64,000 nucleotides of DNA from Rhodocyclaceae bacterium (GTDB lineage Bacteria; Pseudomonadota; Gammaproteobacteria; Burkholderiales; Rhodocyclaceae). A program made the position numbers and the translations under genes. The stretch covers positions 7,373 through 71,372 of the forward strand of contig DATMSM010000044.1 of NCBI GenBank assembly GCA_035565355.1. Reading direction: 5' to 3'. The notes under the pieces are model-generated. The model made no database searches and was not told the origin of the DNA. It saw nothing but the letters and a program-made list of their open reading frames with translations. Positions 16,876 to 28,413 of this stretch are shown here, piece by piece (within the stretch, counting starts at the first letter, position 1; each line of letters begins with the position of its first letter).

Positions 16876-17642
16876 TCCCAGACTTTCCAGGGCGCCTTGC
16901 CCGACGCCCATAGCTCTTCCAGATGACTCTTGTCGCGCAGCGTATCCATGGGCTGCCAGAAGCCATGATGCAGGTAGGCGCTCAACTGCCCCTCCCTTGC
17001 GAGCCTATCCATCGGCTCCTTCTCCCATGCCGTGTCATCGCCATCAATGTAGTCCAGCACCTTGGGCGACAGAGCGAAGAAGCCCCCATTGATCCACGCT
17101 CCATCTCCCTGAGGCTTTTCCTGAAAGCGGCTTACCTTGCCTTCGCTCAGGACTAGAGCGCCGAAGCGACCAGGGGGCTGAGTTGCCGTCAATGTCGCCA
17201 GACAACCTTTTTCCTTGTGAAAAGCCAACAGTTTGGAAATATCGACATCTCCGACTCCATCACCGTAGGTACAGCAAAAATCCTCCTCCCCGAGGTAGGG
17301 GCGCAGCCTTTTGATCCGTCCCCCTGTCATCGTGTCATCCCCGGTATCGACCAGCGTCACCCTCCAGGGCTCCGCGTTGTTGTGATGCACTTCCATCTTG
17401 TTCTTCGCCATATCGAAGGTCACGTTCGACATGTGCAGAAAATAGTTCGCGAAGTACTCCTTGATTACATAGCTCTTGTAACCCAGGCAAATAATGAACT
17501 CATTGACTCCGTGGGCGGAATAGATCTTCATGATGTGCCACAGAATGGGTTTCCCACCCACCTCCACCATGGGTTTAGGCTTCACCGAAGTTTCCTCGCT
17601 AATACGAGTCCCCAAGCCTCCCGCTAAGATCACTGCCTTCAA
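16872..17642 (-). CDS. rfbF: Glucose-1-phosphate cytidylyltransferase
   Basis: [18 protein letters not shown]...[20 protein letters not shown] is very characteristic of RfbF/DdhA. 256 aa. Confidence 0.92.
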
Positions 17643-17757: not shown

Positions 17758-19596
17758 ATGACCAAATATCCAACAAGCCAGCACTTGATGCCATGGGCAG
17801 GGTATCTGTGTGCACTCGCCGTTCTGGAAATCACGTTCGGCAGATTTTTTTCTCCGGCACACACGGTGGGCCACGACTACGCAACTGCCATGCCAGGGCT
17901 ACTGGATGGCTACTACTGGTTCCTGAATAACGGCATCAGCACCCCACCTTGGTTCACCCCCGCCTTCTGCGCTGGTGTCCCACTTTTTTCCGATCCGCAA
18001 TCACTCTTCTACTCCCCCATACAATTCTTCGCCTTCTTCGCGGATCCGCTGAGGGCCTCCCACCTGGCCTTGCTCGCCTATTCGAGCCTAGGCTATCTGG
18101 GCATGTACCTGCTATGTCGGCAACGACTCGGGCTGTCGACCGCAGCCTCGATCTTTGCCGCCTTGCTGTGGATGCTAAACGGTTTTGTTACGCATCGCAT
18201 GATCATCGGCCATATTGGATTTCTCGGCATCAGCCTGATCCCTCTGCTCACCTACCTTCTCCTCTCGACTTCCACCTCCAAGCCAACCAAAGCCCTATGC
18301 ATAACAGGCGCCGGCATTCTCCTGGCCAGTTGGGTGCATTCCGGACTTGGTACGCTATTGATCGCCGCAGCGCTCTCCGTCTGGGGGTTAATCTGTATCG
18401 CCGTCATCCGCGGGGCGCCGGCTCGCGCAGCATACTTGAATAGCGTAGCAGCGGCGACTCTTGGACTCGGCCTCTCCGCATCCAAGCTCGCGGCGACCAT
18501 CAGCACCATGAGCAATCTGGAACGAACCATGTATCCCTTGCCCGGCTTTGCTTCTGTCGGCGACCTATTACTGGCCTCGTTCAGCACCATGATGCTGCCC
18601 AGCAGCCTGGCACAGCCTATGGCCTGGCCGCTTGTACACAATGCCAAGATCTACTTGGATATACATGAATGGACGTTAAACATTACGCCCATTCCATTCG
18701 CGCTCATCCTGCTTGCCGTACTGGTATCGCTCATTCGCAAGCAATCGCAGCCACTCGCCCGCCCTGCACCATCGGCGCTGAGCCATACACTGCTTCTACT
18801 ATTGATCCTATTCATTTCGCTGGCGGTGCAGTTTTATTCCCCTGGCTGGAATGCCTTTCTCAAGACCGCGCCTATCCTTAAATCGATTTCGACGCCGACA
18901 CGCTGGATGGTGCTCTGGCTGCCCATCGTCTGCGTAGGCGCTGCCATCTCACTCAATTACCTTTGCGCGCTGACGCGCAGAAAGGCCGCATGGCAAGCCG
19001 GTAGCTCACTGCTACTGTGCGTTGCTGTCAGCCTGCTGGTTTATACAGAACCGCGCCCCTACTACGAAAACCAGGGCTATGATCCGAACCCCGTTATCGG
19101 AGCCTTCGAACAAGCCAGTCGGCCAGGATTCAAGCCACACCTGGATAGGCTGGGGGCCTATATTGATTCAGCGGGCAATGTCATCTCTCCTCTGTACCGC
19201 AACAATCTTTTTATTGAGGGCGTATCCCAAGCCTTCTGTGCGAACCCGATTTTTGGTTATTTCCTTGAAGCCTACGATCCCAAAGACCTGGCGCCCGGCA
19301 GTCTTTTGAAGACACTTCCATCCGGCCATTTAAACGTTAAGAATCCGGCCTGCTATACCTTCCCGACCGAGAATCATTGCCGACCCGGCGACCATTTCCT
19401 GCCTCAGAATATTGAAGCCGCACAACGTTTTACCAACTACCAGCAGTGGGCGTTTGTACGCCCTGTCAAACAGAGCGTGTGTGATGGCCTCACGCTCGCG
19501 AGCGTCATACTCAGCTTGGGGATACTCCTGATTTGCGGCCCCCTTACCGTGCTGAAAAGTGCCCGATTCTGTTGCCCGCCGCAGCCCCCGAAGTGA
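17758..19596 (+). CDS. Large polytopic membrane protein, candidate GT-C-type (YfhO/Gtr-type-specific-like) glycosyltransferase
   Basis: 612 aa with at least 10 hydrophobic segments and a soluble C-terminal part. It diverges from the sugar operon that encodes GtrA and the GtrB-like GT2. The functional assignment rests on context only. Confidence 0.5.
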   Translation: MTKYPTSQHLMPWAGYLCALAVLEITFGRFFSPAHTVGHDYATAMPGLLDGYYWFLNNGISTPPWFTPAFCAGVPLFSDPQSLFYSPIQFFAFFADPLRASHLALLAYSSLGYLGMYLLCRQRLGLSTAASIFAALLWMLNGFVTHRMIIGHIGFLGISLIPLLTYLLLSTSTSKPTKALCITGAGILLASWVHSGLGTLLIAAALSVWGLICIAVIRGAPARAAYLNSVAAATLGLGLSASKLAATISTMSNLERTMYPLPGFASVGDLLLASFSTMMLPSSLAQPMAWPLVHNAKIYLDIHEWTLNITPIPFALILLAVLVSLIRKQSQPLARPAPSALSHTLLLLLILFISLAVQFYSPGWNAFLKTAPILKSISTPTRWMVLWLPIVCVGAAISLNYLCALTRRKAAWQAGSSLLLCVAVSLLVYTEPRPYYENQGYDPNPVIGAFEQASRPGFKPHLDRLGAYIDSAGNVISPLYRNNLFIEGVSQAFCANPIFGYFLEAYDPKDLAPGSLLKTLPSGHLNVKNPACYTFPTENHCRPGDHFLPQNIEAAQRFTNYQQWAFVRPVKQSVCDGLTLASVILSLGILLICGPLTVLKSARFCCPPQPPK

Positions 19597-19712
19597 CATT
19601 TTTTGTCAGCGGAGCTGTCTTTTTTGGGCACGACTCCGTGGGTAATGTGCAACATTCAGAATAACAAGCCGTAATCTAGGCACATTCGTCATGGTGTTGC
19701 CTTCAGCTTCTA

Positions 19713-19728
19713 TGGCATGCTCCTTGCT
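19713..19728 (+). promoter_or_regulatory. Sigma-54 (-24/-12) type promoter upstream of the short pilin gene
   Basis: TGGCAT-gctcc-TTGCT matches TGGCAC-N5-TTGCW with correct GG/GC spacing. It lies about 125 nt upstream of the pilin ATG. Confidence 0.55.
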
Positions 19729-19852
19729 GCATGTTGCTATAGCACAACCGCACTCAAGGGCATGGGAAGTCCAACCTGGAGCCAAGCGGTTTGCCGACAA
19801 GCTGGATGCGGATCCGCTTTTCCGACAAAACTCTTACTCTACGGAGACTTTT

Positions 19853-20035
19853 ATGGCCAAAAAAACCCAGCGGGGTTTTACTCTGATTGAGCTGATGATC
19901 GTAGTTGCCATCATCGGCATCCTGGCTGCGATTGCCATCCCGCAATTCAGCGAATACACCAGGAAGGGCGAGAACAAGGCGGCTCAGTCCGACACTCGCA
20001 ACATCCTGACGCAAGCCATCGCCAACAGCCAATAA
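19853..20035 (+). CDS. Truncated type IVa prepilin (PilA-N-like, alpha-1 helix only)
   Basis: MAKKTQRG|[24 protein letters not shown] has the class III signal with Gly-1, Phe+1 and Glu+5. The mature part is only 52 aa. A GGAG Shine-Dalgarno lies 7 nt upstream of the ATG. Confidence 0.85.
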
Positions 20036-20052
20036 TTCCAGGAGACTCCAAT

Positions 20053-20400
20053 ATGAATCCGAATAGCAAAAAAGCGCTGGAAGCCATCCTCGTCGGCGGC
20101 GTACTGGTTGTATCCCTGAACGCGAGCGCTCAAACCGGCGCCTGCACCGGTGGTACCGGCGTGGGGATTCCGAGTGACCCAACCGCCTTCGTGAAGACCT
20201 CCTTCGTGCCGAAGTGCTCGGCCAATGTGAACGCCGTGTATCTGGACTCCGGCGCTGCCTTCAGTGTCGCGGGTTATTCCGCCAAGGGCAACCAAAGCTA
20301 TGGTGGTTCCAGCGAAGGTGGCAGCGTCAGCATGTGCACCACCTTTGGTGTCGGCGCCGCCCCGACCCTGAGCCCCAGCACGACTTCCGGCTGCTCCTGA
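20053..20400 (+). CDS. Secreted Gly/Ser/Thr-rich 4-Cys protein (candidate PilA-C-like pilin partner)
   Basis: AGGAG Shine-Dalgarno. Sec-type signal peptide (ILVGGVLVVSLNASA|QT). Four Cys in the mature part. Starts 17 nt after the pilin stop. Confidence 0.6.
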   Translation: MNPNSKKALEAILVGGVLVVSLNASAQTGACTGGTGVGIPSDPTAFVKTSFVPKCSANVNAVYLDSGAAFSVAGYSAKGNQSYGGSSEGGSVSMCTTFGVGAAPTLSPSTTSGCS

Positions 20401-20412
20401 TCCAGCCTTTGG

Positions 20413-20442
20413 AAAAAGCCGGCTTTGCGCCGGCTTTTTTTT
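20413..20442 (+). terminator. Rho-independent terminator/attenuator after the two pilin-related genes
   Basis: Stem AGCCGGC / GCCGGCT followed by a T8 run. The next ORF starts only 6 nt later. Confidence 0.7.
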
Positions 20443-20447
20443 CGCCC

Positions 20448-21266
20448 ATGTCTCTGACTCCTTACACTCAACATATTTCCATCGCATGGAAGCTCGGCGT
20501 CCGCAGCCATGCCATACGCGCGCTGGTCGCATTCGGCGTGTTTCTTCTTGGCGCTGCGTTTCTCGCTGGAGCATTCTCTTTGCGCCAGCCGCTTATCGTC
20601 ACCCTGGATGTCGGCATCAGCGGCATTCGCCTACTGACGGTCTTGCTAACCCTGTTCTGGATGCAGGAAGCCTTCGTACACGACATCGAGCGCCGCACCC
20701 TGACCCTGGCCTTCAGTTTGCCGCTTGATCGCATCACCTACGTACTGGGGCGCTTTATCGGCATCATGCTTTTGATTTCGCTTGCCGTCACCACTTGGGG
20801 AGCTGCCCTTGCAATTGCCGACCAGTTTGCCAGTTGGGGCTACCCCGGGTCCTCGCGCCCGGCTTTGGGGTTGCGCTACGTCGCCATGCTAATGGGCATC
20901 ATGCTTGATGCCTGGGTTATCGGCGCATTCGTCCTCGCCGTCGCCAGTGTCGCACAAACGCCGCTATTGCCTTTTCTGACCGGTGCCGCGTTCGCGGTCT
21001 CCGCCCGCAGCATAGGCGCCGTACTCGATTACCTGAGTTATTCATCCTCCGTGGATGCTGCAACGAAGGCCTATTTCCTAAGCCTCATCGACAAGCTACG
21101 CTGGATCCTACCCGACCTCGGACTATTGGACTGGCGCGCCGCCACCCTATATGGTCAAGACTTTCCGTGGCCACAGGCGCAGTCAGGGATGGCAATTGCC
21201 TTCGGCTACCTTATTGTTTTCCTATCCATTGCCGTCTTTGCGTATCGCCGGCGAGAATTTTACTGA
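20448..21266 (+). CDS. Polytopic membrane protein, ABC-2-type permease-like
   Basis: 272 aa with about 6 hydrophobic segments. No clear Shine-Dalgarno. TGATG overlap with the following gene. An ABC ATPase is encoded 4 kb downstream in the same operon. Confidence 0.55.
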   Translation: MSLTPYTQHISIAWKLGVRSHAIRALVAFGVFLLGAAFLAGAFSLRQPLIVTLDVGISGIRLLTVLLTLFWMQEAFVHDIERRTLTLAFSLPLDRITYVLGRFIGIMLLISLAVTTWGAALAIADQFASWGYPGSSRPALGLRYVAMLMGIMLDAWVIGAFVLAVASVAQTPLLPFLTGAAFAVSARSIGAVLDYLSYSSSVDAATKAYFLSLIDKLRWILPDLGLLDWRAATLYGQDFPWPQAQSGMAIAFGYLIVFLSIAVFAYRRREFY

Positions 21267-24200
21267 TGTCCGCTCAAGCGCCAGACTCCATGCTCCCGCT
21301 CCTGCAGGCGATCCAGTCCTGCGTCAATCAGGGACAAGCTGCTGAAGCCATCCGTCTGTGGGAGGAAGCCGGGCGCCCCGAAAACCGGGAAACCCTTTTT
21401 CTTACGGCGATTGCCGTGCAGCAACTGGACGACCTCGCTTTGGCCCGAGCCAAGCTGGAGAAGGCCCTCGCGCTCGACCCGGACTACCCTCCGGCACAAC
21501 TGCGTCTTGCCCAGGTTGCGCTGAGCGCATTGGACTACCCCGCGACCATCGCCTGGGCAGACCGCTACCTGAATTACCGGCCGTACAGCCAGGAGGCCAT
21601 CAGCTGGAAGGTCTTCGCCATGCAGAAAAACGGCCAGGCGGAAGCTGCGGAGCAGGCCCTGATGGAGTACATCAGGGTTTTTCCCTATTCTCTGGCCACA
21701 GCACAATGCAGCATCGTGATCGCCAATGAACGCAAGGCCTATGTCTATGCCCTACTCATGGGAGGACGGTTACCGCTAGAGCACTGGCACAGGAGTTACG
21801 CTGGACAAACGCTGGCGGCTTGTTGCTTCCATCTCTCCCATGCGCCGCTGATGCATGCAGTTGTCGATATTGTTTACGCCGATACGGTAGCGGAAGAGGA
21901 CGCTGAATATGCTGCACTGATCGGTAATCTGGCGACGCTCGGCGACGCCTATGAAGATGCGGTGCAATGGTACACGCGTGCACGCCAACTCGACCCGCAC
22001 GCCGAGACAAGCTGGTTCAACGAGGCCATCAGTCGCTGGGCGACCGGGGACTTTGCCGCAGGAAGCATCGCCTACCGCGAACGCGGCAAGCTGATGAAGC
22101 TCATGCGTCTGGATGGAATACCGGAATGGCGCGGTGAGAATCTGGAAGGCAAGACACTGCTTGTGCATAGCGAACAAGGCAGCGGAGACGTCATCCAGTT
22201 CATCCGCTATATGCCGTATCTGCGCGAAATCGCAGGCACCGTGCTGTTCAATACCTACCCTGACATTCTTGCACTGCTGCGGACAGACGAAAAAAGTACG
22301 GCGGCCCAGGGCCTGAACGAAAGTCTCCTCGACAAAATCGACTATCAGATCTGGATGATGGACGTGCCAGGCTATCTGAGGCCGAACGGCCTTGCCGACT
22401 TCCCGGCGGATACACCCTATCTGTTCCCGCCTCAAGAAAGGGTTGCCTCATGGAAGAATCGCCTGGCCCCCTACCAAGGTCTAAAGGTCGGTCTGGTTTG
22501 GGCCGGCAACCCCGAACACGCAAATGATCCCAATCGCTCAGCCAGCCTAGCCGAATGGTCGGCATTGAGTGAACTGCAAGGCGTACACTGGTTTTCCTTG
22601 CAAAAAGGCCACGGAGAGCCAGAAGCGAGTTACCCACCGCCAGGGCTGACGCTGAACAATCTCAGCCCGGAAATTCGCGACTTTTCCGATACCGCAGCCA
22701 TCCTCGCAAATCTGGACTTGCTGATCAGCGTAGACACATCGGTGGCCCATTTGGCCGGTGCGTGCGGACGTCCTTGCTGGACCTTATTGCCGAAGCAATG
22801 CATCGACTGGCGCTGGGCCAACCAGCCCGAGATTCCGCACTACTATCCCAGCATGCGTCTGATTCGCCGACAAAAGGAGGACATCGGCTGGGATAGCCTG
22901 GTACGGCGCGAGGTCATCCCCAGGCTCATTGAGCTCGGTGCCACCACGCGTCCAACCCCATCGGAAACATCTCTATCGGCTTATGCGCAGACGCTGGCGC
23001 AGGCGCGCACTACGTTGCAGAACGGGAAGCTGAGCGAAGCGTTAACCCTGTCAGTTCAAGGACTCACGGAGTACCCAGGCGACCCTCGCCTGCAGATGGT
23101 TTGCGCCGACGCGCACATTCGCATGGGCAACAAGGTGTCTGCCGGAGAATGCGCTGCCGAAGTGCTACGCATCTTCCCGCGCAGTGTCAACGCGCATCGC
23201 ATCGCTATGCAGTCGGCCAAAAAGGACAACCTCTTGGGAATGAGTACTCATCTCCAGGCGATGTTGCGTATAGAGCCGGACAACCATGCCATCTGGCAAG
23301 ACGCTGCACGCTTCTACATGACCCACCATGCGCCGCTGATCGCCTATCTCGTCATGCGACACCTGGTGTCACTTAACCCCTCGCACTCGCATATCACTAC
23401 GCTGGCCATTTCTCTGTTGCGCTTGGGCAATCGAGATGCAGCGGCCTCCTTACTTGCAGACATCGAACCTGCGTCTGGAGACAGCCTTGAGCTCCTCCAA
23501 GAGCTCTACTACGCCTGCGCAACCCTTAATCAACGGGACAAGGCGGACCTATTGCAGTCCGCCATCACAGCCCGAGGGCCGATAGGCTCGGACCTCGGCC
23601 TGATGATAGGCTCCATGCTTCTGAGGTGGGGAGAGCAAGAGGGCTGGAAGTTCTATAACCTCTGCAATTGGCCCGACCCCGTCGAGACGCCGCTCAACGT
23701 CCCGATCTGGAACGGCGAAGCATTGGATGGCAAGCATCTGTTGATTTATCAGGATCAAGGCTATGGAGACGTCATTCAGTTCTTCCCCCTGATAAACAGA
23801 TTACCGTCGGCAAGAAAAATTACGCTCTCGGTGTTCTCCGAGGTGCGTGATCTGCTGAGCGAACAAAGTCTCCCGCGGGGGCTTGAGATCATTACCCACA
23901 AAAAGCTGTCGGAAGACTCGGCGCACTATGACTACAGAATCGGTTTCATGCATTGGGTTGCAGGCCTTGCGCCGGATTTGACCAGGCTGCCCGCCCCCTA
24001 TCCCTACCTGCGTGTATCGAGCTCTCCTCGCCTGGAGACATGGGAACAAAAGATGATGGTCGATGCTGGCTTTAAAGTCGGTATCGCATGGGCAGGAAAC
24101 CCCGCGCACTTCAACGACTACAACCGTTCCACGCAACTGGGTGATTGGTTGCCGCTCACTCAGATTTCTGGCATCTCACTGTATAACCTGCAGCGCGACC

Positions 24201-24550
24201 ACGCATCAGATCAGGTTTTTGAATATCCGCAGTTCGAATTTCAAAATATCGTGGCGGATTGCAAGACTCTCCGCGACACCGCCGCCGCGATGCGTATGCT
24301 TGATCTAGTTGTCATCGTAGACACTGGACCGGCCCACCTCGCCGCATCGCTCGGTGTCGAAACCTGGATTCTTCTTCCTAACCTCGGCAACGACTTCCGC
24401 TGGATGCAGGAACGCGATGATTGTCCGTGGTACCCGAGCGTTCGGCTGTTCCGACAGGATATCAACGAGCCCTGGTCTTCCGTGCTGCAGCGTGTTGCTA
24501 CGGCACTTCATGAACGGATGGCGCATCCGGCGAACGTGGTCGCATGCTGA
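21266..24550 (+). CDS. Tandem TPR - GT9-like glycosyltransferase (two TPR+GT modules in one 1094-aa protein)
   Basis: Two internally repeated modules, each with a helical TPR-like region. Module 1 has GSGDVIQFIRY...VGLVWAGNPEHANDPNRS...DTSVAHLAGACGRPCWTLLP...YYPSMRLIRRQ. Module 2 has GYGDVIQFFPL...VGIAWAGNPAHFNDYNRS...DTGPAHLAASLGVETWILLP...PWYPSVRLFRQ. Confidence 0.8.
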   Translation: MSAQAPDSMLPLLQAIQSCVNQGQAAEAIRLWEEAGRPENRETLFLTAIAVQQLDDLALARAKLEKALALDPDYPPAQLRLAQVALSALDYPATIAWADRYLNYRPYSQEAISWKVFAMQKNGQAEAAEQALMEYIRVFPYSLATAQCSIVIANERKAYVYALLMGGRLPLEHWHRSYAGQTLAACCFHLSHAPLMHAVVDIVYADTVAEEDAEYAALIGNLATLGDAYEDAVQWYTRARQLDPHAETSWFNEAISRWATGDFAAGSIAYRERGKLMKLMRLDGIPEWRGENLEGKTLLVHSEQGSGDVIQFIRYMPYLREIAGTVLFNTYPDILALLRTDEKSTAAQGLNESLLDKIDYQIWMMDVPGYLRPNGLADFPADTPYLFPPQERVASWKNRLAPYQGLKVGLVWAGNPEHANDPNRSASLAEWSALSELQGVHWFSLQKGHGEPEASYPPPGLTLNNLSPEIRDFSDTAAILANLDLLISVDTSVAHLAGACGRPCWTLLPKQCIDWRWANQPEIPHYYPSMRLIRRQKEDIGWDSLVRREVIPRLIELGATTRPTPSETSLSAYAQTLAQARTTLQNGKLSEALTLSVQGLTEYPGDPRLQMVCADAHIRMGNKVSAGECAAEVLRIFPRSVNAHRIAMQSAKKDNLLGMSTHLQAMLRIEPDNHAIWQDAARFYMTHHAPLIAYLVMRHLVSLNPSHSHITTLAISLLRLGNRDAAASLLADIEPASGDSLELLQELYYACATLNQRDKADLLQSAITARGPIGSDLGLMIGSMLLRWGEQEGWKFYNLCNWPDPVETPLNVPIWNGEALDGKHLLIYQDQGYGDVIQFFPLINRLPSARKITLSVFSEVRDLLSEQSLPRGLEIITHKKLSEDSAHYDYRIGFMHWVAGLAPDLTRLPAPYPYLRVSSSPRLETWEQKMMVDAGFKVGIAWAGNPAHFNDYNRSTQLGDWLPLTQISGISLYNLQRDHASDQVFEYPQFEFQNIVADCKTLRDTAAAMRMLDLVVIVDTGPAHLAASLGVETWILLPNLGNDFRWMQERDDCPWYPSVRLFRQDINEPWSSVLQRVATALHERMAHPANVVAC

Positions 24551-25356
24551 AAATATGGCCCTCTGTCATGCTGGCTGCCGGAATCGGGCTGACGGCACTG
24601 GGAAATCATCTGCGTCCACCACCACGGCCGATGCAGGAAAGCCTCTCGGTCATGATCCCCGTCCCAGTTCAAATTGTGGCGGCATTTGGCGATCGCTATC
24701 TGGCGGCCAACATAGGCACTTGGCGTGCAATCATGGTTGGCACGCATCGGATGTCCAAAGACGAACTGACAGCGCTTTCCCAAGTACAAGACAGTGCATC
24801 TTGGCTCAATCCAGGCCATGAAGACAACTATTACACTGCTGCCGCCATCCTGCCATGGGCTGGCGAACTTGAGGCGACGCAACGTATTCTCAAGCGCGCC
24901 ACCCAAGCGCGCCCCCACGATCTGTACCCTTCGTTTTTTCATGGCTTCAACGCACTCTACTTTCTAGGCGATGGACTCACTGCAAGCCAGTCATTGAGGA
25001 CAGCAGCGGCCCATGCTCAGTCAAACGATGAACGCCAGGCATTGTCCGTATTGGCGGCACGCTGGTCCGAGCGAAACAACGCCCCACAGATTGCCATTGG
25101 TATCGTTTCGCATATGGCAAAGGAAAGCAAAGACCCGGCGCTCAAGGCATATTTGGCACAAAGAGTCGTCAGACTGGAAGGGCTGGTACAGCTACGTGCT
25201 GCGGCAACCCGCTATCAAGAGCGTTATGGCCGCCCACTGGAAAACCTCGAGCAGTTGGTCAGTGCCGGCATACTTGCCGCCGTGCCTGTTGATCCGCTTG
25301 GCGATGGATACGGATTGCAGGACAATCAACCCGTACTGTTGTCACCGAAAAACTGA
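24544..25356 (+). CDS. Hypothetical protein with an N-terminal membrane anchor or signal
   Basis: 270 aa. N-terminal hydrophobic segment VMLAAGIGLTAL followed by a helical repeat-like body. Translationally coupled (ATGCTGA overlap) to the TPR-GT gene. Confidence 0.5.
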   Translation: MLKIWPSVMLAAGIGLTALGNHLRPPPRPMQESLSVMIPVPVQIVAAFGDRYLAANIGTWRAIMVGTHRMSKDELTALSQVQDSASWLNPGHEDNYYTAAAILPWAGELEATQRILKRATQARPHDLYPSFFHGFNALYFLGDGLTASQSLRTAAAHAQSNDERQALSVLAARWSERNNAPQIAIGIVSHMAKESKDPALKAYLAQRVVRLEGLVQLRAAATRYQERYGRPLENLEQLVSAGILAAVPVDPLGDGYGLQDNQPVLLSPKN

Positions 25357-25361
25357 ACTAT

Positions 25362-26288
25362 ATGCCGGATATTATTTCTGCCAGCAACGTCAGCAAACAC
25401 TATCGCAAGGGTTTGCGCCGACACATCTTCAATGCCCTCGAAGATGTGAGCTTTAGCGCTGCCGCCGGCGAGTCAATCGGTTTCATCGGCCACAATGGTG
25501 CGGGCAAGAGCACCATGATCAGGATCATCATGGGCTTGCAGACACCGACGAGCGGTTCTGTGCTGTTGCAGGGCATGGACCCGCGGGTGCCGGAAAGCCG
25601 CCGCGGTGTTGCCTACGTTCCGGAGAACCCGCTGCTCTACGACCACCTCAGCCCCAATGAGCTCATCCGACTGACGACACTCAGCCACGGAATCTCACCG
25701 AATGAGACCGCAGCGCGTACGCGGAAGTGGTTAGAAAGACTCAACCTTGCCGAAGTCGCGGACAAGCGCGTACGGCAATTTTCCAAGGGGATGGTGCAGC
25801 GTACGACACTCGCCATGGCTTTAGCGGTGGAGCCGCGCTTTCTGATTCTCGATGAACCGCTTTCCGGGCTGGACCCGACCGGGCGGCGCGAGGTCGTGGA
25901 GATTCTTTCTGAATACCGAAGAAACGGTGGCGGAATGCTGTTCTCGTCTCACGTGCTGACCGACGTGGAAGTGCTCGCCGATCGTTTCCTCTTTATTCAC
26001 AAAGGTCGCATTCGCGTCACGGGAACCCCGGGCACCCTACTGCAAGGCCACGAAGACAGTTACGAAGTCATCATCGAAGCGACGGACGAACCGCCCCCGG
26101 GATTTTCACAGCTATATGGGCTCCAGTACAAACTGGAGCTCGACGCAAATGCGCTTGAGATGAAGTTGTCGGAATTGAGAAACAAGAACGGAGTGCGCCT
26201 GATCAACATTCGTTCCAGAAATACGCTCGAATCGGCCTATTTCAGATTTGTCGCGGAAGCCGAACGATCCGACGCCCGACCATCGTAA
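25362..26288 (+). CDS. ABC transporter ATP-binding protein (ABC-2 exporter type)
   Basis: Walker A GHNGAGKST, signature FSKGMVQR, Walker B LILDEPLSGLD. Confidence 0.9.
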   Translation: MPDIISASNVSKHYRKGLRRHIFNALEDVSFSAAAGESIGFIGHNGAGKSTMIRIIMGLQTPTSGSVLLQGMDPRVPESRRGVAYVPENPLLYDHLSPNELIRLTTLSHGISPNETAARTRKWLERLNLAEVADKRVRQFSKGMVQRTTLAMALAVEPRFLILDEPLSGLDPTGRREVVEILSEYRRNGGGMLFSSHVLTDVEVLADRFLFIHKGRIRVTGTPGTLLQGHEDSYEVIIEATDEPPPGFSQLYGLQYKLELDANALEMKLSELRNKNGVRLINIRSRNTLESAYFRFVAEAERSDARPS

Positions 26289-26305
26289 TTAGGAAGAGAT
26301 TCAAC

Positions 26306-27115
26306 ATGGATGGCTACAATGCTCGCCTGGAAGTCGATATTCCCTATTTACAGCCGCATAGCGCATGCAAGGTCTGTGGAGAACAAGCCAGCCTGTATGG
26401 CGTAGTCGACTTTACTAAGACCTGCGCGCAAGAACTCAAACTAGCGCCAGTCGGCGTCCCGGTCTACTACTATCAATGCAGCCACTGCCAGTTTTTATTT
26501 ACGCGGGCATTCGACAAGTGGACGGTCGGCGACTTCAATCGCCACATCTATAACAAAAACTACCAGGTATTCGACCCTGATTCCCTGGAAATACGTCCGA
26601 GCAGTTTCTACGTTTTTTTTCAAGAAGTCCTAAGCAAACACCGGGGCCGCATTCGCGGATTGGACTATGGGGGGGGCAACGGTCTATTGTCGCGTTTAAT
26701 GGTCGATAAGGGCTACGACTTCAGCACTTGGGATCCAATGGAGGCGGAACAGACCATTCCCGAAGGTAAATTCAACCTCATCAGCGCCATTGAAGTAGCT
26801 GAGCACGTTCCCGATCCCCATACGTTCTTTACCGCCATAGACCGTTACTTATCCCAAGATGGGCTCTGCTTTTTCACTACCGCAGTCCAGGATAGCGCCG
26901 ATATCGAAGACCTGATGGCTTGGTGGTACGTAGCTCCCATCAATGGCCATATCAGCTTGTACTCGCATAAAGCCATTGAGCATTTATGTGCCCAATATGG
27001 TCTGCGAGGCCATATCAGTGGCGGTCGACACTTTCTCTACCGAGAGCCTACACCGCTTCTTGATGAGTTTATAAACACCATACTCTCCCATGAGGAGGCA
27101 AGTCACAGCAGCTAA
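26306..27115 (+). CDS. Class I SAM-dependent methyltransferase with an N-terminal CxxC...CxxC zinc ribbon
   Basis: CKVCGEQ...CSHCQ, followed by LDYGGGNG (motif I). Confidence 0.7.
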   Translation: MDGYNARLEVDIPYLQPHSACKVCGEQASLYGVVDFTKTCAQELKLAPVGVPVYYYQCSHCQFLFTRAFDKWTVGDFNRHIYNKNYQVFDPDSLEIRPSSFYVFFQEVLSKHRGRIRGLDYGGGNGLLSRLMVDKGYDFSTWDPMEAEQTIPEGKFNLISAIEVAEHVPDPHTFFTAIDRYLSQDGLCFFTTAVQDSADIEDLMAWWYVAPINGHISLYSHKAIEHLCAQYGLRGHISGGRHFLYREPTPLLDEFINTILSHEEASHSS

Positions 27116-27165
27116 GCCTCAGCGGGGAAGCTGATATCAGATGCAACTTCGTCGGGGGTATTCGG

Positions 27166-27612
27166 CTATCTAGCCTTACCTGCCAGCGCCTTCGCCAGCC
27201 GGCGGAAATCATGCTCCGCTTGCCACTCTGCTCGTTCGGGCGTGGCATGCGCGTACGATAGAGCCTCTTCAGGGTTCTGTTTGAGGAAGGCATCCAGAGT
27301 TTGGCGCAGAATGCCATGATGCGGCAGCATCGGTCCCATGAACAACACCAGCTCCTTGCGTTGAATCAGCAAGGTCGGAAAGTTCTCGATATCCCAGTCT
27401 TCGACACCCGAGTTCTCGTCCTCGATATCGACCCACACGAAGCCCACGTCGGGATATCGCGCCTCCATCTCCCGGAAACCGTCCTCATACTCGCGGCAAG
27501 TACCGCACCAGGCGGCACAAAGACAAACGACGAGGAATTCGCGGGCGATTGGGTCCAGGGGGTTCGGGGCGGACATCAGGGCGGTTAGAATTGCGGTTTG
27601 GTATTCGATCAT
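27166..27612 (-). CDS. Thioredoxin-family protein
   Basis: AAWCGTC redox motif (WCxxC). 148 aa. Confidence 0.75.
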   Translation of the reverse strand: MIEYQTAILTALMSAPNPLDPIAREFLVVCLCAAWCGTCREYEDGFREMEARYPDVGFVWVDIEDENSGVEDWDIENFPTLLIQRKELVLFMGPMLPHHGILRQTLDAFLKQNPEEALSYAHATPERAEWQAEHDFRRLAKALAGKAR

Positions 27613-27639
27613 ACCCGATCACCACTGTATTCTTCAGCC

Positions 27640-28413
27640 ATGAGCCTAGCCCTAGCCACCGACCAACGTCTCCCCGCCACACCGATCAGCGAGGCTGAGC
27701 GCGCACTGCGCATCGACCTGGCCGCCGCATATCGCCTGGCTGCCCGCCAAGGCTGGGACGACCTGATCTATACGCATATCACAGCCCGCGTTCCCGGCGA
27801 GGACGGCGCCTTTCTCATCAACCCGTTTGGTCTGCGCTTCGACGAAATCACCGCCGCCAGCCTGGTCAAGATCAATATCCACGGCCAGATCTACGGCGAC
27901 GCCGATGTGGAAGTGAATGCCATCGGCTTTCGCATCCACGCCACCGTGCATGCAGCCCGTCACGATGCGCATTGCGTCATGCATCTGCACAACGTCAATG
28001 CAATTGCCGTGTCGGCCCAGCTCGACGGCCTGCTGCCGATTTCGCAGCATGCGATGCGCTTCTACAAGCAGATCGGCTATCACGACTACGAAGGCCTGTC
28101 ACTGACCGAACCCGAGGGGCGGCGCATGGTTCAAAGTCTGGCCGACTACCCGGCCCTGCTACTGCGCAATCACGGCAGTCTGGTGTGCGGCCGCACCGTG
28201 GCCGAAGCGTATGTGTTGATGGACACGCTGGACAAAGCCTGCCAGATCCAGCTCAAGGCCCAGGCCGGTGGTACGGAGCTGGTGACGCCGCCGCCCCAAG
28301 TCCTGCAACACACCGCGCGCCAGCTCGTCAGCGACGATGTGCCGGAAGGCGAACGCGAGTGGCCGGCGCTGCTGCGCCTGCTCGATCAGAGCGACGCCTC
28401 ATACCGCAACTAA
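27640..28413 (+). CDS. Class II aldolase/adducin-family protein
   Basis: THITARVP...HATVHAARHDAHCVMHLHN...LRNHG pattern, typical of the metal-binding His residues of class II aldolases. Confidence 0.8.
   Translation: MSLALATDQRLPATPISEAERALRIDLAAAYRLAARQGWDDLIYTHITARVPGEDGAFLINPFGLRFDEITAASLVKINIHGQIYGDADVEVNAIGFRIHATVHAARHDAHCVMHLHNVNAIAVSAQLDGLLPISQHAMRFYKQIGYHDYEGLSLTEPEGRRMVQSLADYPALLLRNHGSLVCGRTVAEAYVLMDTLDKACQIQLKAQAGGTELVTPPPQVLQHTARQLVSDDVPEGEREWPALLRLLDQSDASYRN

What the first reader, a model, noticed from the sequence alone, without database searches (positions are those of the whole stretch)
21266..24550. Single 1094-aa polypeptide containing two complete TPR + GT9-like glycosyltransferase modules
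The motifs G(S/Y)GDVIQF, VG(L/I)(V/A)WAGNP.H.ND.NRS, DT..AHLA...G...W.LLP and (Y/W)YPS(M/V)RL(I/F)R(R)Q each occur twice, about 530 residues apart. Each copy is preceded by a helical TPR-like region. GT9 enzymes are cytoplasmic, nucleotide-sugar-dependent transferases such as heptosyltransferases. GT9-related enzymes heptosylate autotransporters, and TPR-glycosyltransferase fusions such as FlmG glycosylate flagellins. TPR arrays suggest a protein acceptor. The gene sits between the halves of an ABC exporter and 0.9 kb downstream of a pilin and a Ser/Thr/Gly-rich secreted protein. Two flagellins with long variable domains lie 37 kb away. The acceptor and the donor sugar are both unknown.
Basis: partly seen in the sequence, partly recalled or inferred. 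Interest (0 to 1): 0.7.

Follow-up and report, generated by a model that had tools for sequence, protein, structure and literature searches.

The report
Two-headed glycosyltransferase in a split-pilin operon
A real 1094-residue cytoplasmic enzyme made of two TPR-plus-sugar-transferase units sits in a conserved operon with a Geobacter-like 'split' pilin and an ABC exporter, which suggests it sugar-coats the pilin inside the cell rather than acting on flagellin or LPS; this has not been tested.

Summary
ORF 21266-24550 (+) encodes 1094 aa. Residues 284-548 and 811-1076 are 37% identical (E 7e-46), and all four motifs occur exactly twice. Each half is a TPR array followed by a compact GT-B domain. 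The closest solved folds are GT9 heptosyltransferases (WaaC, WaaF, 3TOV). The WaaC-type G-D and D-T-x-x-x-H motifs are conserved in both halves.

The doubling is ordinary for this family. The family has about 12,900 cluster representatives at E<=1e-30, and its members carry 1 to 7 modules.

The context is the informative part. The gene lies in a tight operon found in eight loci, mostly Betaproteobacteria. The operon encodes a 52-54-aa truncated pilin (best PDB match Geobacter PilA-N), a secreted ~88-aa Ser/Thr-rich partner, an ABC-2 permease, this enzyme, a conserved 270-aa protein, an ABC ATPase, and usually a methyltransferase. Module 2 is a lineage found only in these cassettes. In two other loci, full-length pilins sit beside two single-module relatives and methyltransferases, with no ABC exporter.

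Best reading (about 0.45): a cytoplasmic, pilin-directed O-glycosyltransferase with two distinct activities. Rivals are synthesis of a lipid-linked glycan for ABC export, and a flagellin acceptor. Acceptor and donor remain untested.

The parts
19713..19728 (+). sigma-54-like -24/-12 element (TGGCATGCTCCTTGCT), 140 nt upstream of the pilin start codon
   Evidence: Pattern scan. The relaxed pattern has only 2 matches on the + strand of the window and 0 on the - strand. A similar element lies upstream of the pilin in L041. This is weak, consensus-only evidence.
19853..20035 (+). prepilin of 60 aa (leader MAKKTQRG, mature 52 aa): a truncated type IVa pilin, PilA-N-like
   Evidence: Pfam N_methyl and NCBIfam pilin models hit it. 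The best PDB matches are Geobacter 'Geopilin domain 1' entries 7tgg, 9egp_A, 2m7g and 6vk9, E 1e-16 to 9e-15. Orthologues are 52-54 aa mature.
20053..20400 (+). 115-aa secreted protein (signal peptide plus ~88 aa mature, 28% Ser/Thr, 4 Cys): candidate PilA-C-like partner of the short pilin
   Evidence: Translation and hydropathy. Seven orthologues were aligned; C95 and C114 are invariant, and C31 and C55 are lost together in L041. The top PDB hit of the profile is Geobacter 'Geopilin domain 2' 9egp_B, but E is 0.19 and hhalign probability is 0.7%. Homology is therefore not shown.
20448..21266 (+). ABC-2 type permease, 272 aa, 6 predicted TM segments (start inferred from orthologues)
   Evidence: Weak PF12679 and PF13346 hits. 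Six hydrophobic segments. Orthologues are 36-71% identical in all cassette loci. Its stop codon overlaps the start of the glycosyltransferase gene.
21266..22114 (+). TPR array 1 (aa 1-283) of the glycosyltransferase
   Evidence: Pfam TPR_14, TPR_2 and TPR_1 hits. The AF2 model has 16 helices in aa 6-271.
22115..22909 (+). GT9-like GT-B catalytic module 1 (aa 284-548), the generic family type
   Evidence: PF01075 hit. AF2 model of this domain alone has pLDDT 89.5. Foldseek top hits are 3tov, WaaF 1psw and WaaC 6dfe/2gt1. G307-D308 and D490-T491...H495 align to WaaC G12-D13 and D261-T262...H266. These residues are conserved in 23 orthologues.
22961..23695 (+). TPR array 2 (aa 566-810)
   Evidence: Pfam TPR_19 best stretch is aa 584-640. 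AF2 helices cover aa 572-797.
23696..24493 (+). GT9-like GT-B catalytic module 2 (aa 811-1076), a cassette-specific lineage
   Evidence: 37% identical to module 1. G834-D835 and H1024 are invariant, and D1019 is conserved in >=90% of orthologues. Profiles built for m1 and m2 separate them: m2-type modules occur only as the second module of the split-pilin cassette proteins, 9 of 225 modules.
24544..25356 (+). conserved 270-aa protein of unknown function, with a hydrophobic N-terminus followed by a soluble part that was not modelled; candidate accessory protein of the ABC system
   Evidence: No Pfam or NCBIfam hit. 464 homologues, all unnamed or 'hypothetical'; the named source organisms are Betaproteobacteria or unclassified Pseudomonadota. 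47-58% identical in every cassette locus. Its start overlaps the glycosyltransferase stop by 7 nt.
25362..26288 (+). ABC transporter ATPase, 308 aa, DrrA/GldA/NosF/ABCA-like
   Evidence: PF00005. NCBIfam best hits are DrrA, GldA and NodI, all below cut-off. Nearest solved sequences are ABCA3/4/7/1 NBDs and NosF; no Wzt appears in the best 60.
26306..27115 (+). SAM-dependent methyltransferase (Methyltransf_23), last gene of the tight gene string
   Evidence: Pfam hit. A 36%-identical homologue follows the pilin and two TPR-GT9 genes in L046. Methyltransferases are also present in L003, L004 and L008.

Best explanation
The gene encodes a soluble cytoplasmic Leloir glycosyltransferase built from two TPR + GT9-like GT-B units. 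I propose that it O-glycosylates the products of its own operon. These are a Geobacter-type split pilin: a 52-aa PilA-N-like helix and a secreted Ser/Thr-rich partner of about 88 aa.

Shown:
- The architecture, the GT-B/GT9-like fold, and conservation of the WaaC-type G-D and D-T-x-x-x-H motifs in both modules.
- The absence of any export signal on the enzyme.
- The conserved six-gene cassette: pilin, partner protein, ABC-2 permease, enzyme, 270-aa protein, ABC ATPase.
- The recurrence of 'pilin + two TPR-GT9 modules + methyltransferase' in loci that lack the ABC exporter.

Inferred:
- Each TPR arm binds a protein acceptor, as the FlmG TPR binds flagellin and the OGT TPR binds its substrates.
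- The two catalytic domains belong to separately conserved lineages, so they carry out two different transfers. These could be two sugars in sequence or two kinds of site. The methyltransferase would then methylate the glycan.
- Modification happens in the cytoplasm before membrane insertion or Sec export. Precedents are autotransporter heptosylation by TibC/AAH, HMW1 glycosylation, and cyanobacterial Ogt-dependent PilA glycosylation.
- The ABC-2 system with the 270-aa protein serves pilin handling, in the manner reported for M. xanthus PilGHI, rather than glycan export.

The donor sugar is unknown. In the window, a CDP-3,6-dideoxyhexose-type sugar island lies just upstream, and Chitinimonas has a different sugar island next to its cassette. 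This suggests strain-variable donors.
For: Fold and motifs:
- Internal duplication, E 7e-46.
- PF01075 found twice, plus TPR families.
- AF2 pLDDT 88.9 for the whole protein and 89.5 for module 1.
- The ten best Foldseek hits are GT9 structures, apart from one plant NDH-complex subunit chain at rank 2; TibC also hits, more weakly.
- A profile of the modules hits only WaaC and WaaF in the PDB and aligns the G-D and DTxxxH motifs. Both are conserved in 23 orthologues.
- No TM segment or signal peptide.

Operon: the genes overlap or lie 5-47 nt apart.

Cassette conservation: found in L002, L003, L004, L005, L008 (Chitinimonas koreensis), L029, L041 (Parachitinimonas caeni) and the window.

Pilin link without an ABC exporter:
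- L046 has a full-length pilin, two single-module TPR-GT9 genes, an FkbM methyltransferase and a Methyltransf_23 homologue.
- L078 has a GAF-HD-GYP gene (preceded by a 791-aa ORF that was not scanned), TPR-GT41, GT4, two TPR-GT9 genes and a full-length pilin.

Other points:
- The module-2 lineage is exclusive to cassette proteins.
- Candidate acceptor sites exist: the short pilins end in variable Ser/Thr-containing tails, and the partner protein has a variable S/T/A/P-rich loop between two invariant Cys.

Literature precedents:
- The FlmG TPR binds flagellin, and FlmG's GT-B domain sets donor specificity in the cytoplasm (PMC7591256; 10.1101/2022.03.25.485807).
- Cytoplasmic TPR-GT41 Ogt, encoded next to pilA, is needed for PilA glycosylation and piliation (PMC9306852).
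- PilGHI is described as needed for pilin translocation (PMC3724824).
- The Geobacter xapD (ABC ATPase downstream of pilA) mutant lacks detectable PilA (10.1101/114900).
Against: - There is no biochemical evidence for any member of this family, and homology to FlmG itself was not testable here.
- All well-characterised pilin glycosylation in proteobacteria is periplasmic (PilO/PglL oligosaccharyltransferases, TfpW). Glycosylating a Sec/SRP substrate in the cytoplasm is unusual.
- Three orthologous loci (L003, L004, L005) carry a Wzy_C gene right after the ATPase, and L003 also carries GT2 genes. That pattern is what a lipid-linked glycan route would need.
- Characterised GT9 enzymes act on lipid-linked glycans.
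- The best full-length Foldseek hit is a TPR-containing capsule-polymerase multienzyme, 8qoy.
- The 115-aa protein could not be shown to be homologous to Geobacter PilA-C.
- Gene adjacency is correlative only.
Confidence: 0.45

Rival explanations
1. Glycan synthase for an ABC-exported glycan. The two GT modules would alternately or sequentially build an oligo- or polysaccharide on a lipid carrier at the inner face of the membrane. The methyltransferase would cap the chain and the flanking ABC-2 transporter would export it. The glycan would then become an exopolysaccharide (as proposed for the Geobacter xap cluster downstream of pilA), or a Wzy_C-type ligase or O-oligosaccharyltransferase would transfer it to pilin or lipid A-core.
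For: - The gene is embedded between the permease and ATPase genes of an ABC-2 exporter, in one operon.
- A methyltransferase follows the ATPase, as in ABC-dependent O-antigen systems with methyl caps (the comparison is from general knowledge).
- Wzy_C genes follow the ATPase in L003, L004 and L005, GT2 genes follow in L003, and a GT4 gene follows in L029.
- Sugar-biosynthesis islands adjoin the cassette in the window and in L008.
- Characterised GT9 enzymes use lipid-linked acceptors, and the closest solved folds are WaaC and WaaF.
- The best full-length structural match is a TPR-containing capsule polymerase, 8qoy.
- The Geobacter xap cluster GSU1498-1508 downstream of pilA is reported as needed for about 50% of exopolysaccharide (PMC3495685).
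Against: - L046 and L078 keep the 'pilin + two TPR-GT9 (+ methyltransferases)' pattern, and no ABC ATPase or permease homologue was detected within 10 kb by tblastn.
- Wzy_C is missing from the cassettes of the window, L008, L029 and L041.
- No initiating phosphoglycosyltransferase is present in the cassette.
- The ATPase is nearest to ABCA and NosF NBDs, not to Wzt, TagH or KpsT. The permease gives only weak PF12679/PF13346 hits and does not hit PF01061.
- Long TPR arms are protein-binding modules and are not needed for lipid-linked acceptors.
- The Geobacter xapD mutant lacks PilA, which fits a pilin-handling role for that ABC system equally well.
Confidence: 0.27
2. Flagellin glycosyltransferase of the FlmG type. 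The TPR arms would bind the two flagellins encoded 37 kb away, and the GT domains would decorate their variable domains in the cytoplasm before flagellar export.
For: - More distant family members lie in flagellar clusters. P0034 of Citrifermentans bemidjiense (three modules) and a two-module paralogue lie a few genes from flagellin (L006). Other relatives sit within 10 kb of flagellin genes in L061, L063 and L074.
- FlmG has the same TPR + GT-B layout and is sufficient for flagellin glycosylation.
- The window encodes two flagellins.
- A NeuB-family gene lies 7 kb upstream.
Against: - The flagellins are 37 kb away, beyond thrS, infC, pheST, an ABC importer and sulfite reductase genes.
- None of the eight cassette loci has a flagellin within 10 kb, while all have the split pilin.
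- The gene is translationally coupled to pilin-operon genes.
- Module 2 is a lineage not seen in the flagellin-linked relatives.
Confidence: 0.1
3. The acceptor is another cytoplasmic or envelope protein, or the enzyme's role is mainly structural. Candidate acceptors include the conserved 270-aa protein, a component of the pilus machinery, or several substrates as with OGT. One module might be catalytically dead, and the TPR arms might scaffold the ABC/pilus assembly complex.
For: - TPR-GT enzymes such as OGT and SPY have many substrates. The full-length model matches SPY and OGT at E about 1e-10, largely through the TPR region.
- The 270-aa protein is as conserved as the enzyme, and its gene overlaps the enzyme's.
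Against: - Both modules keep the putative catalytic Asp and the nucleotide-sugar motif across 23 orthologues, which argues against a dead module.
- Nothing specific points to another acceptor.
- The pilin linkage also holds in loci where no 270-aa protein homologue was detected by tblastn.
Confidence: 0.1

Closest known systems
FlmG of Caulobacter crescentus / Brevundimonas subvibrioides (flagellin O-glycosyltransferase)
   Same: Each module (~545 aa) has the FlmG layout: an N-terminal TPR domain (~280 aa) followed by a C-terminal GT-B domain (~270-290 aa). FlmG is 596 aa, with TPR at 1-313 and GT at 309-596. Both are soluble and cytoplasmic. In FlmG the TPR binds the protein acceptor and the GT-B domain sets donor specificity. 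More distant relatives of the window protein sit near flagellin, FlbT and FlaF genes.
   Different: Here two such units are fused, and the gene is in a pilin operon, not a flagellar or pseudaminic-acid cluster. The donor is unknown. Sequence homology to FlmG could not be tested because no FlmG sequence was available. FlmG is described as confined to Caulobacterales, whereas this family is very large and found in many phyla.
GT9 LPS heptosyltransferases WaaC / WaaF (and GT9 protein 3TOV)
   Same: These are the closest solved folds (TM 0.5-0.6). They are also the only glycosyltransferases hit in the PDB by sequence profile. The WaaC G12-D13 and D261-T262...H266 motifs align and are conserved in both modules. 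PF01075 scores above its gathering threshold.
   Different: - Similarity is very distant (11-14% identity, E 0.016 by profile).
- The catalytic domain is more compact, ~265 aa against ~320-350 aa.
- It is fused to TPR arrays and duplicated.
- The genomic context is a pilin operon, not an LPS core cluster.
- NCBIfam heptosyltransferase models score far below their cut-offs, 31 against 185 bits.
BAHT family autotransporter heptosyltransferases (TibC, AAH)
   Same: They have a GT9-like GT-B fold and glycosylate Ser residues of a secreted protein in the cytoplasm before Sec export. This sets the topological precedent. TibC structures are found by Foldseek at E 4e-3 to 2e-2.
   Different: The structural match is weaker than to WaaC and WaaF. 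BAHT enzymes have no TPR, and TibC is an iron-containing dodecamer. No autotransporter gene was noted in the operon or among the flanking genes scanned.
Cyanobacterial Ogt / OgtA (TPR + GT41) needed for PilA glycosylation
   Same: A cytoplasmic TPR-glycosyltransferase is encoded next to pilA genes and is required for pilin glycosylation, pilin stability and piliation (PMC9306852). In L078 a TPR-GT41 gene sits in the same gene string as two TPR-GT9 genes and a pilin.
   Different: The catalytic family differs: GT41 there, GT9-like here. Ogt has a single catalytic unit and acts with full-length pilins. No ABC exporter is described as part of the Ogt locus in that paper.
Geobacter PilA-N / PilA-C split pilin with the downstream ABC ('xap', GSU1498-1501), and Myxococcus PilGHI
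   Same: - The truncated pilin is of the same size, and its best solved match is Geobacter PilA-N.
- A small secreted partner gene lies directly downstream.
- An ABC-2 transporter is encoded just after the pilin genes.
- In Geobacter, loss of the ABC ATPase xapD abolishes detectable PilA. In M. xanthus, PilGHI is reported as needed for pilin translocation.
   Different: - This locus is in Betaproteobacteria. Truncated pilins were reported as limited to the deltaproteobacterial cluster (10.1101/668343).
- Only 3 of 52 residues are aromatic, so it is not an 'e-pilin' by the published density rule.
- Homology of the partner protein to PilA-C is not shown.
- Homology of the ABC parts to PilGHI or Xap was not tested.
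- Whether Geobacter has a TPR-GT9 gene at this position is unknown.

Membership tests
GT9 / Pfam PF01075 (heptosyltransferase-like GT-B) | GT-B fold: two Rossmann-like domains with a C-terminal helix crossing back | tested here: met
   The AF2 models have pLDDT 88.9 and 89.5. Both halves show the strand/helix alternation. Foldseek top hits are 3tov, 1psw, 6dfe, 2gt1 and 2h1h, E 2e-6 to 2e-4, TM 0.47-0.62. Only module 1 was searched alone. Module 2 is inferred from its 37% identity to module 1.
GT9 / Pfam PF01075 (heptosyltransferase-like GT-B) | Significant match to the family profile | tested here: met
   PF01075 scores 37.4 bits against a gathering score of 22, in two stretches. The best stretch covers only profile positions 167-208 of 247. 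NCBIfam equivalogs for HepI, II and III score far below cut-off. The protein is therefore a distant relative, not an orthologue of an LPS heptosyltransferase.
GT9 / Pfam PF01075 (heptosyltransferase-like GT-B) | Catalytic Asp in the N-terminal G-D motif, and the D-T-G-x-x-H nucleotide-sugar motif (WaaC D13, D261, H266; the roles of these residues are from my own knowledge of WaaC) | tested here: met
   The profile alignment to WaaC places G-D opposite G12-D13, and D-T-x-x-x-H opposite D261-T262...H266. D308, D835, H495 and H1024 are invariant, and D490 and D1019 are >=90% conserved, in 23 orthologues. The N-terminal alignment segment is weak on its own.
GT9 / Pfam PF01075 (heptosyltransferase-like GT-B) | ADP-heptose donor and lipid A-core (Kdo/heptose) acceptor | not testable with these tools
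   No ADP-heptose pathway or LPS core genes were found among the neighbours scanned. The context argues against this, but there is no biochemical test.
FlmG class of flagellin glycosyltransferases | N-terminal TPR acceptor-binding domain plus C-terminal GT-B domain in one soluble protein | tested here: met
   The feature is met twice in tandem. FlmG dimensions are taken from PMC7591256.
FlmG class of flagellin glycosyltransferases | Sequence homology to FlmG | not testable with these tools
   No FlmG sequence could be fetched.
FlmG class of flagellin glycosyltransferases | Genetic linkage to flagellin, flagellar genes or Pse/Leg genes | tested here: not met
   The gene is in a pilin operon, and the flagellins are 37 kb away behind housekeeping genes. 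No cassette locus has flagellin within 10 kb. The feature is met only by distant relatives in L006, L061, L063 and L074.
GT41 (OGT / SPINDLY / HMW1C) | GT41 catalytic domain (PF13844) | tested here: not met
   Pfam reports PF01075 and does not report PF13844. Full-length Foldseek matches to SPY and OGT (E ~1e-10, TM ~0.2) are driven by the TPR region. With the catalytic module alone, no GT41 structure is among the best 50 hits.
BAHT (TibC/AAH) protein heptosyltransferases | GT9-like fold with closest similarity to TibC/AAH, and pairing with an autotransporter substrate gene | tested here: not met
   TibC is hit only at E 4e-3 or weaker, below WaaC and WaaF. No autotransporter was found among the operon and flanking genes scanned.
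Wzm/Wzt ABC-transporter-dependent glycan pathway | Wzm-type permease (PF01061) and a Wzt/TagH/KpsT-like ATPase next to polymerising GTs | tested here: not met
   The permease gives only weak PF12679/PF13346 hits. The ATPase's best NCBIfam models are DrrA, GldA and NodI. Its best solved relatives are ABCA NBDs and NosF, with no Wzt among the best 60. Distant relatedness within type V ABC exporters is not excluded.
Geobacter-type split pilin (PilA-N + PilA-C) | Truncated (~60 aa or less) T4a pilin homologous to PilA-N | tested here: met
   The mature pilin is 52 aa. Its best PDB hits are Geobacter PilA-N chains, E 1e-16. Orthologues are 52-54 aa.
Geobacter-type split pilin (PilA-N + PilA-C) | Adjacent gene homologous to PilA-C (GSU1497) | tested here: inconclusive
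   Position, size, signal peptide and Cys pattern all fit. The profile's top PDB hit is 'Geopilin domain 2' 9egp_B, but E is 0.19 and hhalign probability is 0.7%.
Geobacter-type split pilin (PilA-N + PilA-C) | Aromatic density of an 'e-pilin' (>=9.8% aromatics, per 10.1101/668343) | tested here: not met
   Only F1, F24 and Y27 are aromatic, 3 of 52 residues (5.8%) (threshold).

The most novel reading that the evidence does not exclude
The cassette encodes a third, so far undescribed route of type IV pilin glycosylation. In this route a two-headed cytoplasmic TPR-GT9-like enzyme puts two different sugars, later methylated, directly onto a split pilin (PilA-N-like helix plus secreted partner) before export. 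A dedicated ABC-2 transporter with a novel 270-aa partner then handles the modified subunits. This would be distinct from the periplasmic PilO/PglL oligosaccharyltransferase route and from the TfpW GT-C route. It would also give a first function to a very large uncharacterised TPR-GT9-like family, and it would extend Geobacter-type split pilins to Betaproteobacteria.
Probability: 0.3. Interest if true: 0.75.

Novelty: new variant of a known kind. Interest (0 to 1): 0.55.

Why it matters
- The TPR + GT9-like family is very large. It has 36,262 50%-identity cluster representatives at E<=1e-3 and 12,863 at E<=1e-30. It is spread over many phyla. I found no experimental study of it in the literature I could search. 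A defined, operon-encoded candidate acceptor would make its function directly testable.
- If the pilin is the acceptor, this would be a cytoplasmic pilin glycosylation system in proteobacteria. It would use a modular 'reader arm + transferase' logic like FlmG and OGT.
- The two heads allow a clean genetic dissection with D308A versus D835A mutants.
- The locus shows that Geobacter-like truncated pilins with a separate partner gene and a downstream ABC system also occur in Rhodocyclaceae and Chitinimonas. This bears on the debate about what split pilins and the Geobacter 'xap' ABC system really do.
- Cultured carriers exist: Chitinimonas koreensis, C. arctica (known only through the 270-aa homologue P0228; its locus was not examined) and Parachitinimonas caeni.

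Tried and rejected
1. From memory I suspected that P. aeruginosa FgtA (PA1091) and P. syringae Fgt1 were TPR-GT9 proteins. The literature says FgtA is a GT2 enzyme fused to a phosphotransferase (PMC11833859). Lead rejected.
2. From memory I suspected that M. xanthus RfbC/WbgA, next to Wzm/Wzt, was a relative. A literature search gave nothing on its domains, and I could not fetch the sequence. Left untested.
3. I tried to confirm that the Geobacter xap cluster holds a TPR-GT9 gene between GSU1498 and GSU1501. No paper mentions GSU1499 or GSU1500. The Geobacteraceae relative examined, P0034, lies in a flagellar cluster instead. The best 120 homologues of the 270-aa protein include no Geobacter entry. 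Unresolved.
4. Homology of the 115-aa protein to Geobacter PilA-C: phmmer found nothing, the profile gave a top hit at E 0.19, and hhalign gave probability 0.7%. Not demonstrated.
5. Foldseek with the full-length model was dominated by TPR proteins. I therefore modelled and searched module 1 alone.
6. In L004, L005, L029 and L041 a PilB-like GAF-MshEN-T2SSE ATPase precedes the cassette. I looked for one in the window. The 791-aa ORF at 33207-35582 (-) is PheT, and its neighbours are pheS, infC and IHF. Absent from the part of the window tested.
7. The sigma-70 promoter and terminator scan of 19500-27800 found nothing above shuffled expectation.
8. The 612-aa membrane protein upstream has no Pfam, NCBIfam or PDB sequence match. 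Its suspected GT-C nature stays a guess.
9. I did not use the last large protein search. No query would have brought FlmG or Geobacter PilA-C into a 120-row list dominated by close orthologues.

Full report
1. THE OBSERVATION

The ORF list shows one long frame ending at 24550. The ATG at 21266 overlaps the TGA of the upstream gene (TGATG). It gives a 1094-aa product that starts like its orthologues and is identical to a deposited Rhodocyclaceae MAG protein annotated only as 'hypothetical'.

BLASTP of the two halves aligns aa 284-548 with aa 811-1076 at 37% identity over 272 columns, E 7e-46. Pfam finds several TPR families in both halves and PF01075 (Glyco_transf_9) in two stretches, above its gathering score.

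2. FOLD AND CATALYTIC APPARATUS

I aligned 23 orthologues of 1082-1192 aa. With that alignment AlphaFold2 gives a confident model (pLDDT 88.9, pTM 0.88). It has helical repeat arrays at aa 6-271 and 572-797, each followed by two Rossmann-like beta/alpha domains.

A Foldseek search with the whole model is dominated by TPR proteins: SPINDLY, OGT, and a TPR-containing capsule polymerase, 8qoy. I therefore modelled module 1 alone (pLDDT 89.5). Its best PDB matches are, apart from one plant NDH-complex subunit chain at rank 2, all GT9 structures:
- the Veillonella GT9 protein 3TOV,
- WaaF (1PSW),
- WaaC (6DFE, 2GT1, 2H1H).

The protein heptosyltransferase TibC matches more weakly.

A sequence profile of 14 modules hits only WaaC and WaaF in the whole PDB. 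It aligns the module's G-D motif with WaaC G12-D13, and its D-T-x-x-x-H motif with WaaC D261-T262...H266. These positions are D308, D490 and H495 in module 1, and D835, D1019 and H1024 in module 2. They are invariant or >=90% conserved in all 23 orthologues. Both heads therefore look catalytically competent; that these residues matter in WaaC is from my own knowledge.

The protein has no hydrophobic segment or signal peptide, so it is cytoplasmic. NCBIfam heptosyltransferase equivalogs score far below cut-off. The protein is GT9-like, not an LPS heptosyltransferase orthologue.

3. IS THE DOUBLING UNUSUAL?

No. The genome scan returned 78 loci from Cyanobacteria, Alpha-, Beta- and Deltaproteobacteria, Verrucomicrobia, Planctomycetes, Firmicutes and others.

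I built an HMM of the catalytic module and counted modules in 128 family proteins from these loci:

| Modules per protein | Proteins |
|---|---|
| 1 | 77 |
| 2 | 26 |
| 3 | 13 |
| 4 | 5 |
| 5 | 6 |
| 7 | 1 |

There are also tandem arrays of single-module genes, for example eight in a row in Sporomusa. This sample is biased toward multi-module proteins, because loci were ranked against a two-module query.

A full HMMER pass over 1.84 billion cluster representatives finds 36,262 proteins at E<=1e-3 and 12,863 at E<=1e-30. Most of the 150 best-scoring hits have 2-6 matched stretches, which partly reflects score ranking. The (TPR-GT)n architecture is a standard feature of a very large family. I found no functional study of that family in the searchable literature.

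4. THE CONTEXT

The gene is one link in a tight gene string. Stop/start codons overlap or lie 5-47 nt apart.

| Coordinates | Product |
|---|---|
| 19853-20035 | prepilin |
| 20053-20400 | 115-aa secreted protein |
| 20448-21266 | ABC-2 permease, 6 TM |
| 21266-24550 | this enzyme |
| 24544-25356 | 270-aa protein with no known domain |
| 25362-26288 | ABC ATPase |
| 26306-27115 | SAM methyltransferase |

The same order (short pilin, ~110-aa protein, permease, two-module enzyme, ~260-280-aa protein, ATPase) recurs around the orthologues P0003, P0004, P0015 and P0118 (Chitinimonas koreensis). It also recurs in a Rhodocyclaceae MAG (L029) and in Parachitinimonas caeni (L041). A methyltransferase is present in the window, L003, L004 and L008. 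Wzy_C genes follow the ATPase in L003, L004 and L005. GT2 genes follow in L003 and a GT4 gene follows in L029.

The 270-aa protein defines a family of 464 unnamed proteins. The named source organisms are Betaproteobacteria or unclassified Pseudomonadota: Sulfuritalea, Rugosibacter, Sulfurisoma, Chitinimonas.

5. THE PILIN IS A SPLIT PILIN

The mature pilin is only 52 aa ([52 protein letters not shown]). Its best matches among all solved structures are the Geobacter PilA-N chains, E 1e-16. Orthologues are 52-54 aa, nearly identical over the first 45 residues, and end in variable Ser/Thr-containing tails.

The 115-aa product has the following features:
- a signal peptide and a mature part of ~88 aa that is 28% Ser/Thr;
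- two Cys pairs; one pair is lost together in one orthologue, which fits a disulfide;
- a variable S/T/A/P-rich loop between the two invariant C-terminal Cys, resembling the disulfide loop of full-length pilins.

By position and features it is the counterpart of Geobacter PilA-C. Sequence homology is not demonstrated, however. The profile's top PDB hit is 'Geopilin domain 2', but at E 0.19, and hhalign probability is 0.7%.

The published view is that truncated pilins are limited to the deltaproteobacterial cluster (10.1101/668343). With 3 aromatic residues in 52, this one does not meet the e-pilin density rule.

6. WHICH ACCEPTOR?

Three comparative results point to the pilin rather than to an exported glycan or flagellin.

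(a) In two further betaproteobacterial loci, full-length type IV pilins lie directly beside two single-module TPR-GT9 genes, with no ABC exporter detected.
- L046 has a pilin, two TPR-GT9 genes, an FkbM methyltransferase, and a Methyltransf_23 protein 36% identical to the window's.
- L078 has a GAF-HD-GYP gene as upstream of several cassettes (a preceding 791-aa ORF was not scanned), then TPR-GT41, GT4, two TPR-GT9 genes and a pilin.
The constant association is therefore 'pilin + two TPR-GT9 modules + methyltransferase'. The ABC system goes with the split form of the pilin.

(b) Separate profiles for modules 1 and 2 show that module 1 is the generic family type. Module-2-type domains occur only as the second head of the cassette proteins, 9 of 225 modules. 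The two heads are thus separately conserved and presumably do different things.

(c) Flagellin lies within 10 kb in only five sampled loci: L006 and L007 (the same Citrifermentans bemidjiense flagellar-cluster locus), L061, L063 and L074. It is never near a cassette. In the window, the flagellins lie 37 kb away, beyond thrS, infC, pheST and sulfur-assimilation genes.

7. PRECEDENTS FROM THE LITERATURE

- FlmG (596 aa; TPR 1-313, GT-B 309-596) is cytoplasmic. It binds flagellin through its TPR, selects the donor through its GT-B domain, and is sufficient for glycosylation in heterologous hosts (PMC7591256).
[quoted passage not shown] Loss of N. punctiforme OgtA prevents PilA accumulation (PMC9306852).
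- TibC/AAH and HMW1C (from my own knowledge) show that Sec substrates can be glycosylated in the cytoplasm.
- For the ABC part: M. xanthus PilGHI, encoded after pilA, is described as essential for pilin translocation across the inner membrane (PMC3724824). The Geobacter xapD mutant (GSU1501, the ABC ATPase of the cluster starting right after pilA-N and GSU1497) has no detectable PilA (10.1101/114900).
- The window's ATPase is nearest to ABCA-type and NosF NBDs and to DrrA/GldA models, not to Wzt.

Homology of the window's ABC parts to PilGHI or Xap could not be tested.

8. MOST LIKELY MECHANISM (confidence about 0.45)

I propose a cytoplasmic, bi-modular O-glycosyltransferase. Its two TPR arms would recognise the products of its own operon. 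Its two distinct GT9-like heads would transfer two sugars, or serve two classes of Ser/Thr site, from nucleotide-sugar donors. The methyltransferase would finish the glycan. The ABC-2 system with the 270-aa protein would serve membrane handling or export of the subunits.

Architecture, fold, motif conservation, localisation and gene linkage are shown. Acceptor, donor, order of action and the role of the ABC system are inferred.

The main rival (about 0.27) is synthesis of a lipid-linked glycan exported by the flanking ABC transporter.
- In favour: Wzy_C, GT2 and GT4 genes in some orthologous loci, the adjacent sugar islands, and the lipid-linked acceptors of true GT9 enzymes.
- Against: the ABC-less pilin loci, the non-Wzt character of the transporter, the lack of an initiating transferase, and the TPR arms.

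A flagellin acceptor (about 0.1) and another protein acceptor or scaffold role (about 0.1) remain possible.

9. COMPARISON WITH KNOWN FAMILIES, NOVELTY, AND VERDICT

Each unit works like FlmG or OGT in layout, and its catalytic fold is GT9-like. It cannot be filed as any of the following:
- an LPS heptosyltransferase (equivalog models fail, and the context is wrong);
- a GT41 enzyme (the domain was tested and not found);
- a BAHT enzyme (weaker fold match, no TPR in BAHT, no autotransporter nearby);
- a member of the FlmG class (linkage test not met, homology not testable).

I rate it a new variant of a known kind: a TPR-guided cytoplasmic glycosyltransferase with a GT9-like catalytic domain, doubled, with a cassette-specific second head, embedded in a conserved split-pilin/ABC operon.

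The interesting part is the conserved pilin cassette and the testable prediction that follows from it. Interest: 0.55.

Noticed in passing
window 19853-20035 and 20053-20400 (+); also L002-L005, L008, L029, L041: This looks like a Geobacter-type split pilin outside the Desulfuromonadales: a 52-54-aa truncated T4a pilin plus a separate small secreted Cys-paired partner gene. It occurs in Rhodocyclaceae, Chitinimonas and Parachitinimonas. Some loci carry 2-3 copies of the short pilin gene (L004, L005, L029, L041). A published survey states that truncated pilins are limited to the deltaproteobacterial cluster. This pilin has low aromatic content (3 of 52 residues).
   Followed up: partly
window 7890-17642 (-): A lower-GC (53-57% against 62-64%) sugar island lies just upstream. 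It encodes a GT2 plus GtrA pair (GtrB/GtrA-like), an epimerase/reductase, an FkbM methyltransferase, a TPP-dependent acetolactate-synthase-like enzyme, a NeuB-family enzyme, RfbH (CDP-6-deoxy-glucose-3-dehydrase, 756 bits, above cut-off), a CDP-glucose 4,6-dehydratase-like enzyme and a nucleotidyltransferase. This suggests a CDP-3,6-dideoxyhexose. The TPP enzyme raises the possibility of a branched-chain sugar like yersiniose; that comparison is from memory and was not tested.
   Followed up: partly
window 17758-19596 (+): A 612-aa protein with at least 8 hydrophobic segments and a C-terminal soluble region lies directly upstream of the pilin gene. It has no Pfam, NCBIfam or PDB sequence match and no homologue in the other cassette loci. 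With the GtrA/GT2 pair nearby it could be a GT-C-type periplasmic glycosyltransferase (GtrC- or TfpW-like), which would be a second possible pilin-modifying route. This is a guess only.
   Followed up: partly
window 24544-25356 (+): The conserved 270-aa protein has a hydrophobic N-terminus and no known domain. Its family has 464 members, all unannotated, and it is always found between the two-module glycosyltransferase and the ABC ATPase. Its role is unknown. It may be a partner of the ABC-2 exporter.
   Followed up: partly
L004 1-8027, L005 650-5647, L029 2997-8018, L041 344-4552; L078 3292-4977 (GAF-HD-GYP only): In L004, L005, L029 and L041 the pilin/TPR-GT cassette is preceded by a conserved signalling and assembly block. 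The block holds a cNMP-binding/rhodanese protein (not seen in L041), a 780-800-aa GAF-MshEN-T2SSE (PilB/MshE-like) ATPase, and a GAF-HD-GYP phosphodiesterase. L004 also has a CHASE2-guanylate cyclase and an FHA protein. L078 has the GAF-HD-GYP gene; the 791-aa ORF before it was not scanned. This hints at cyclic-nucleotide control of this pilus. The block is absent near the window's cassette.
   Followed up: partly
window 19713-19728 (+): A sigma-54-type -24/-12 element (TGGCAT-N5-TTGCT) lies 140 nt upstream of the pilin start codon. Only two matches to the relaxed pattern occur in the whole window. This would be consistent with RpoN/PilR-type control of pilin genes.
   Followed up: partly
L006 (Citrifermentans bemidjiense Bem, CP001124 4273491-4297843): The flagellar cluster carries a three-module and a two-module TPR-GT9 protein in tandem, upstream of flagellin, FlbT and FlaF. 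Two TPR-GT41 proteins lie on the other strand. This is an unusually dense set of TPR-glycosyltransferases around flagellin genes.
   Followed up: no
L020 7718-19135 (Telmatospirillum MAG); L017, L018, L022, L034, L062, L069 (Microcoleus and other cyanobacteria): These loci hold giant family members: one ORF of about 3800 aa with seven TPR-GT9 modules, and cyanobacterial proteins of about 3300 aa with five modules. Cyanobacteria lack flagella, so their acceptors must be something else.
   Followed up: no
window 5253-6731 (+); L004 17868-19343 (-); L029 17696-19174 (-): A CYTH-CHAD protein (~490 aa) recurs within a few kb of the cassette in three loci, on varying sides and strands. Its significance is unknown.
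   Followed up: no
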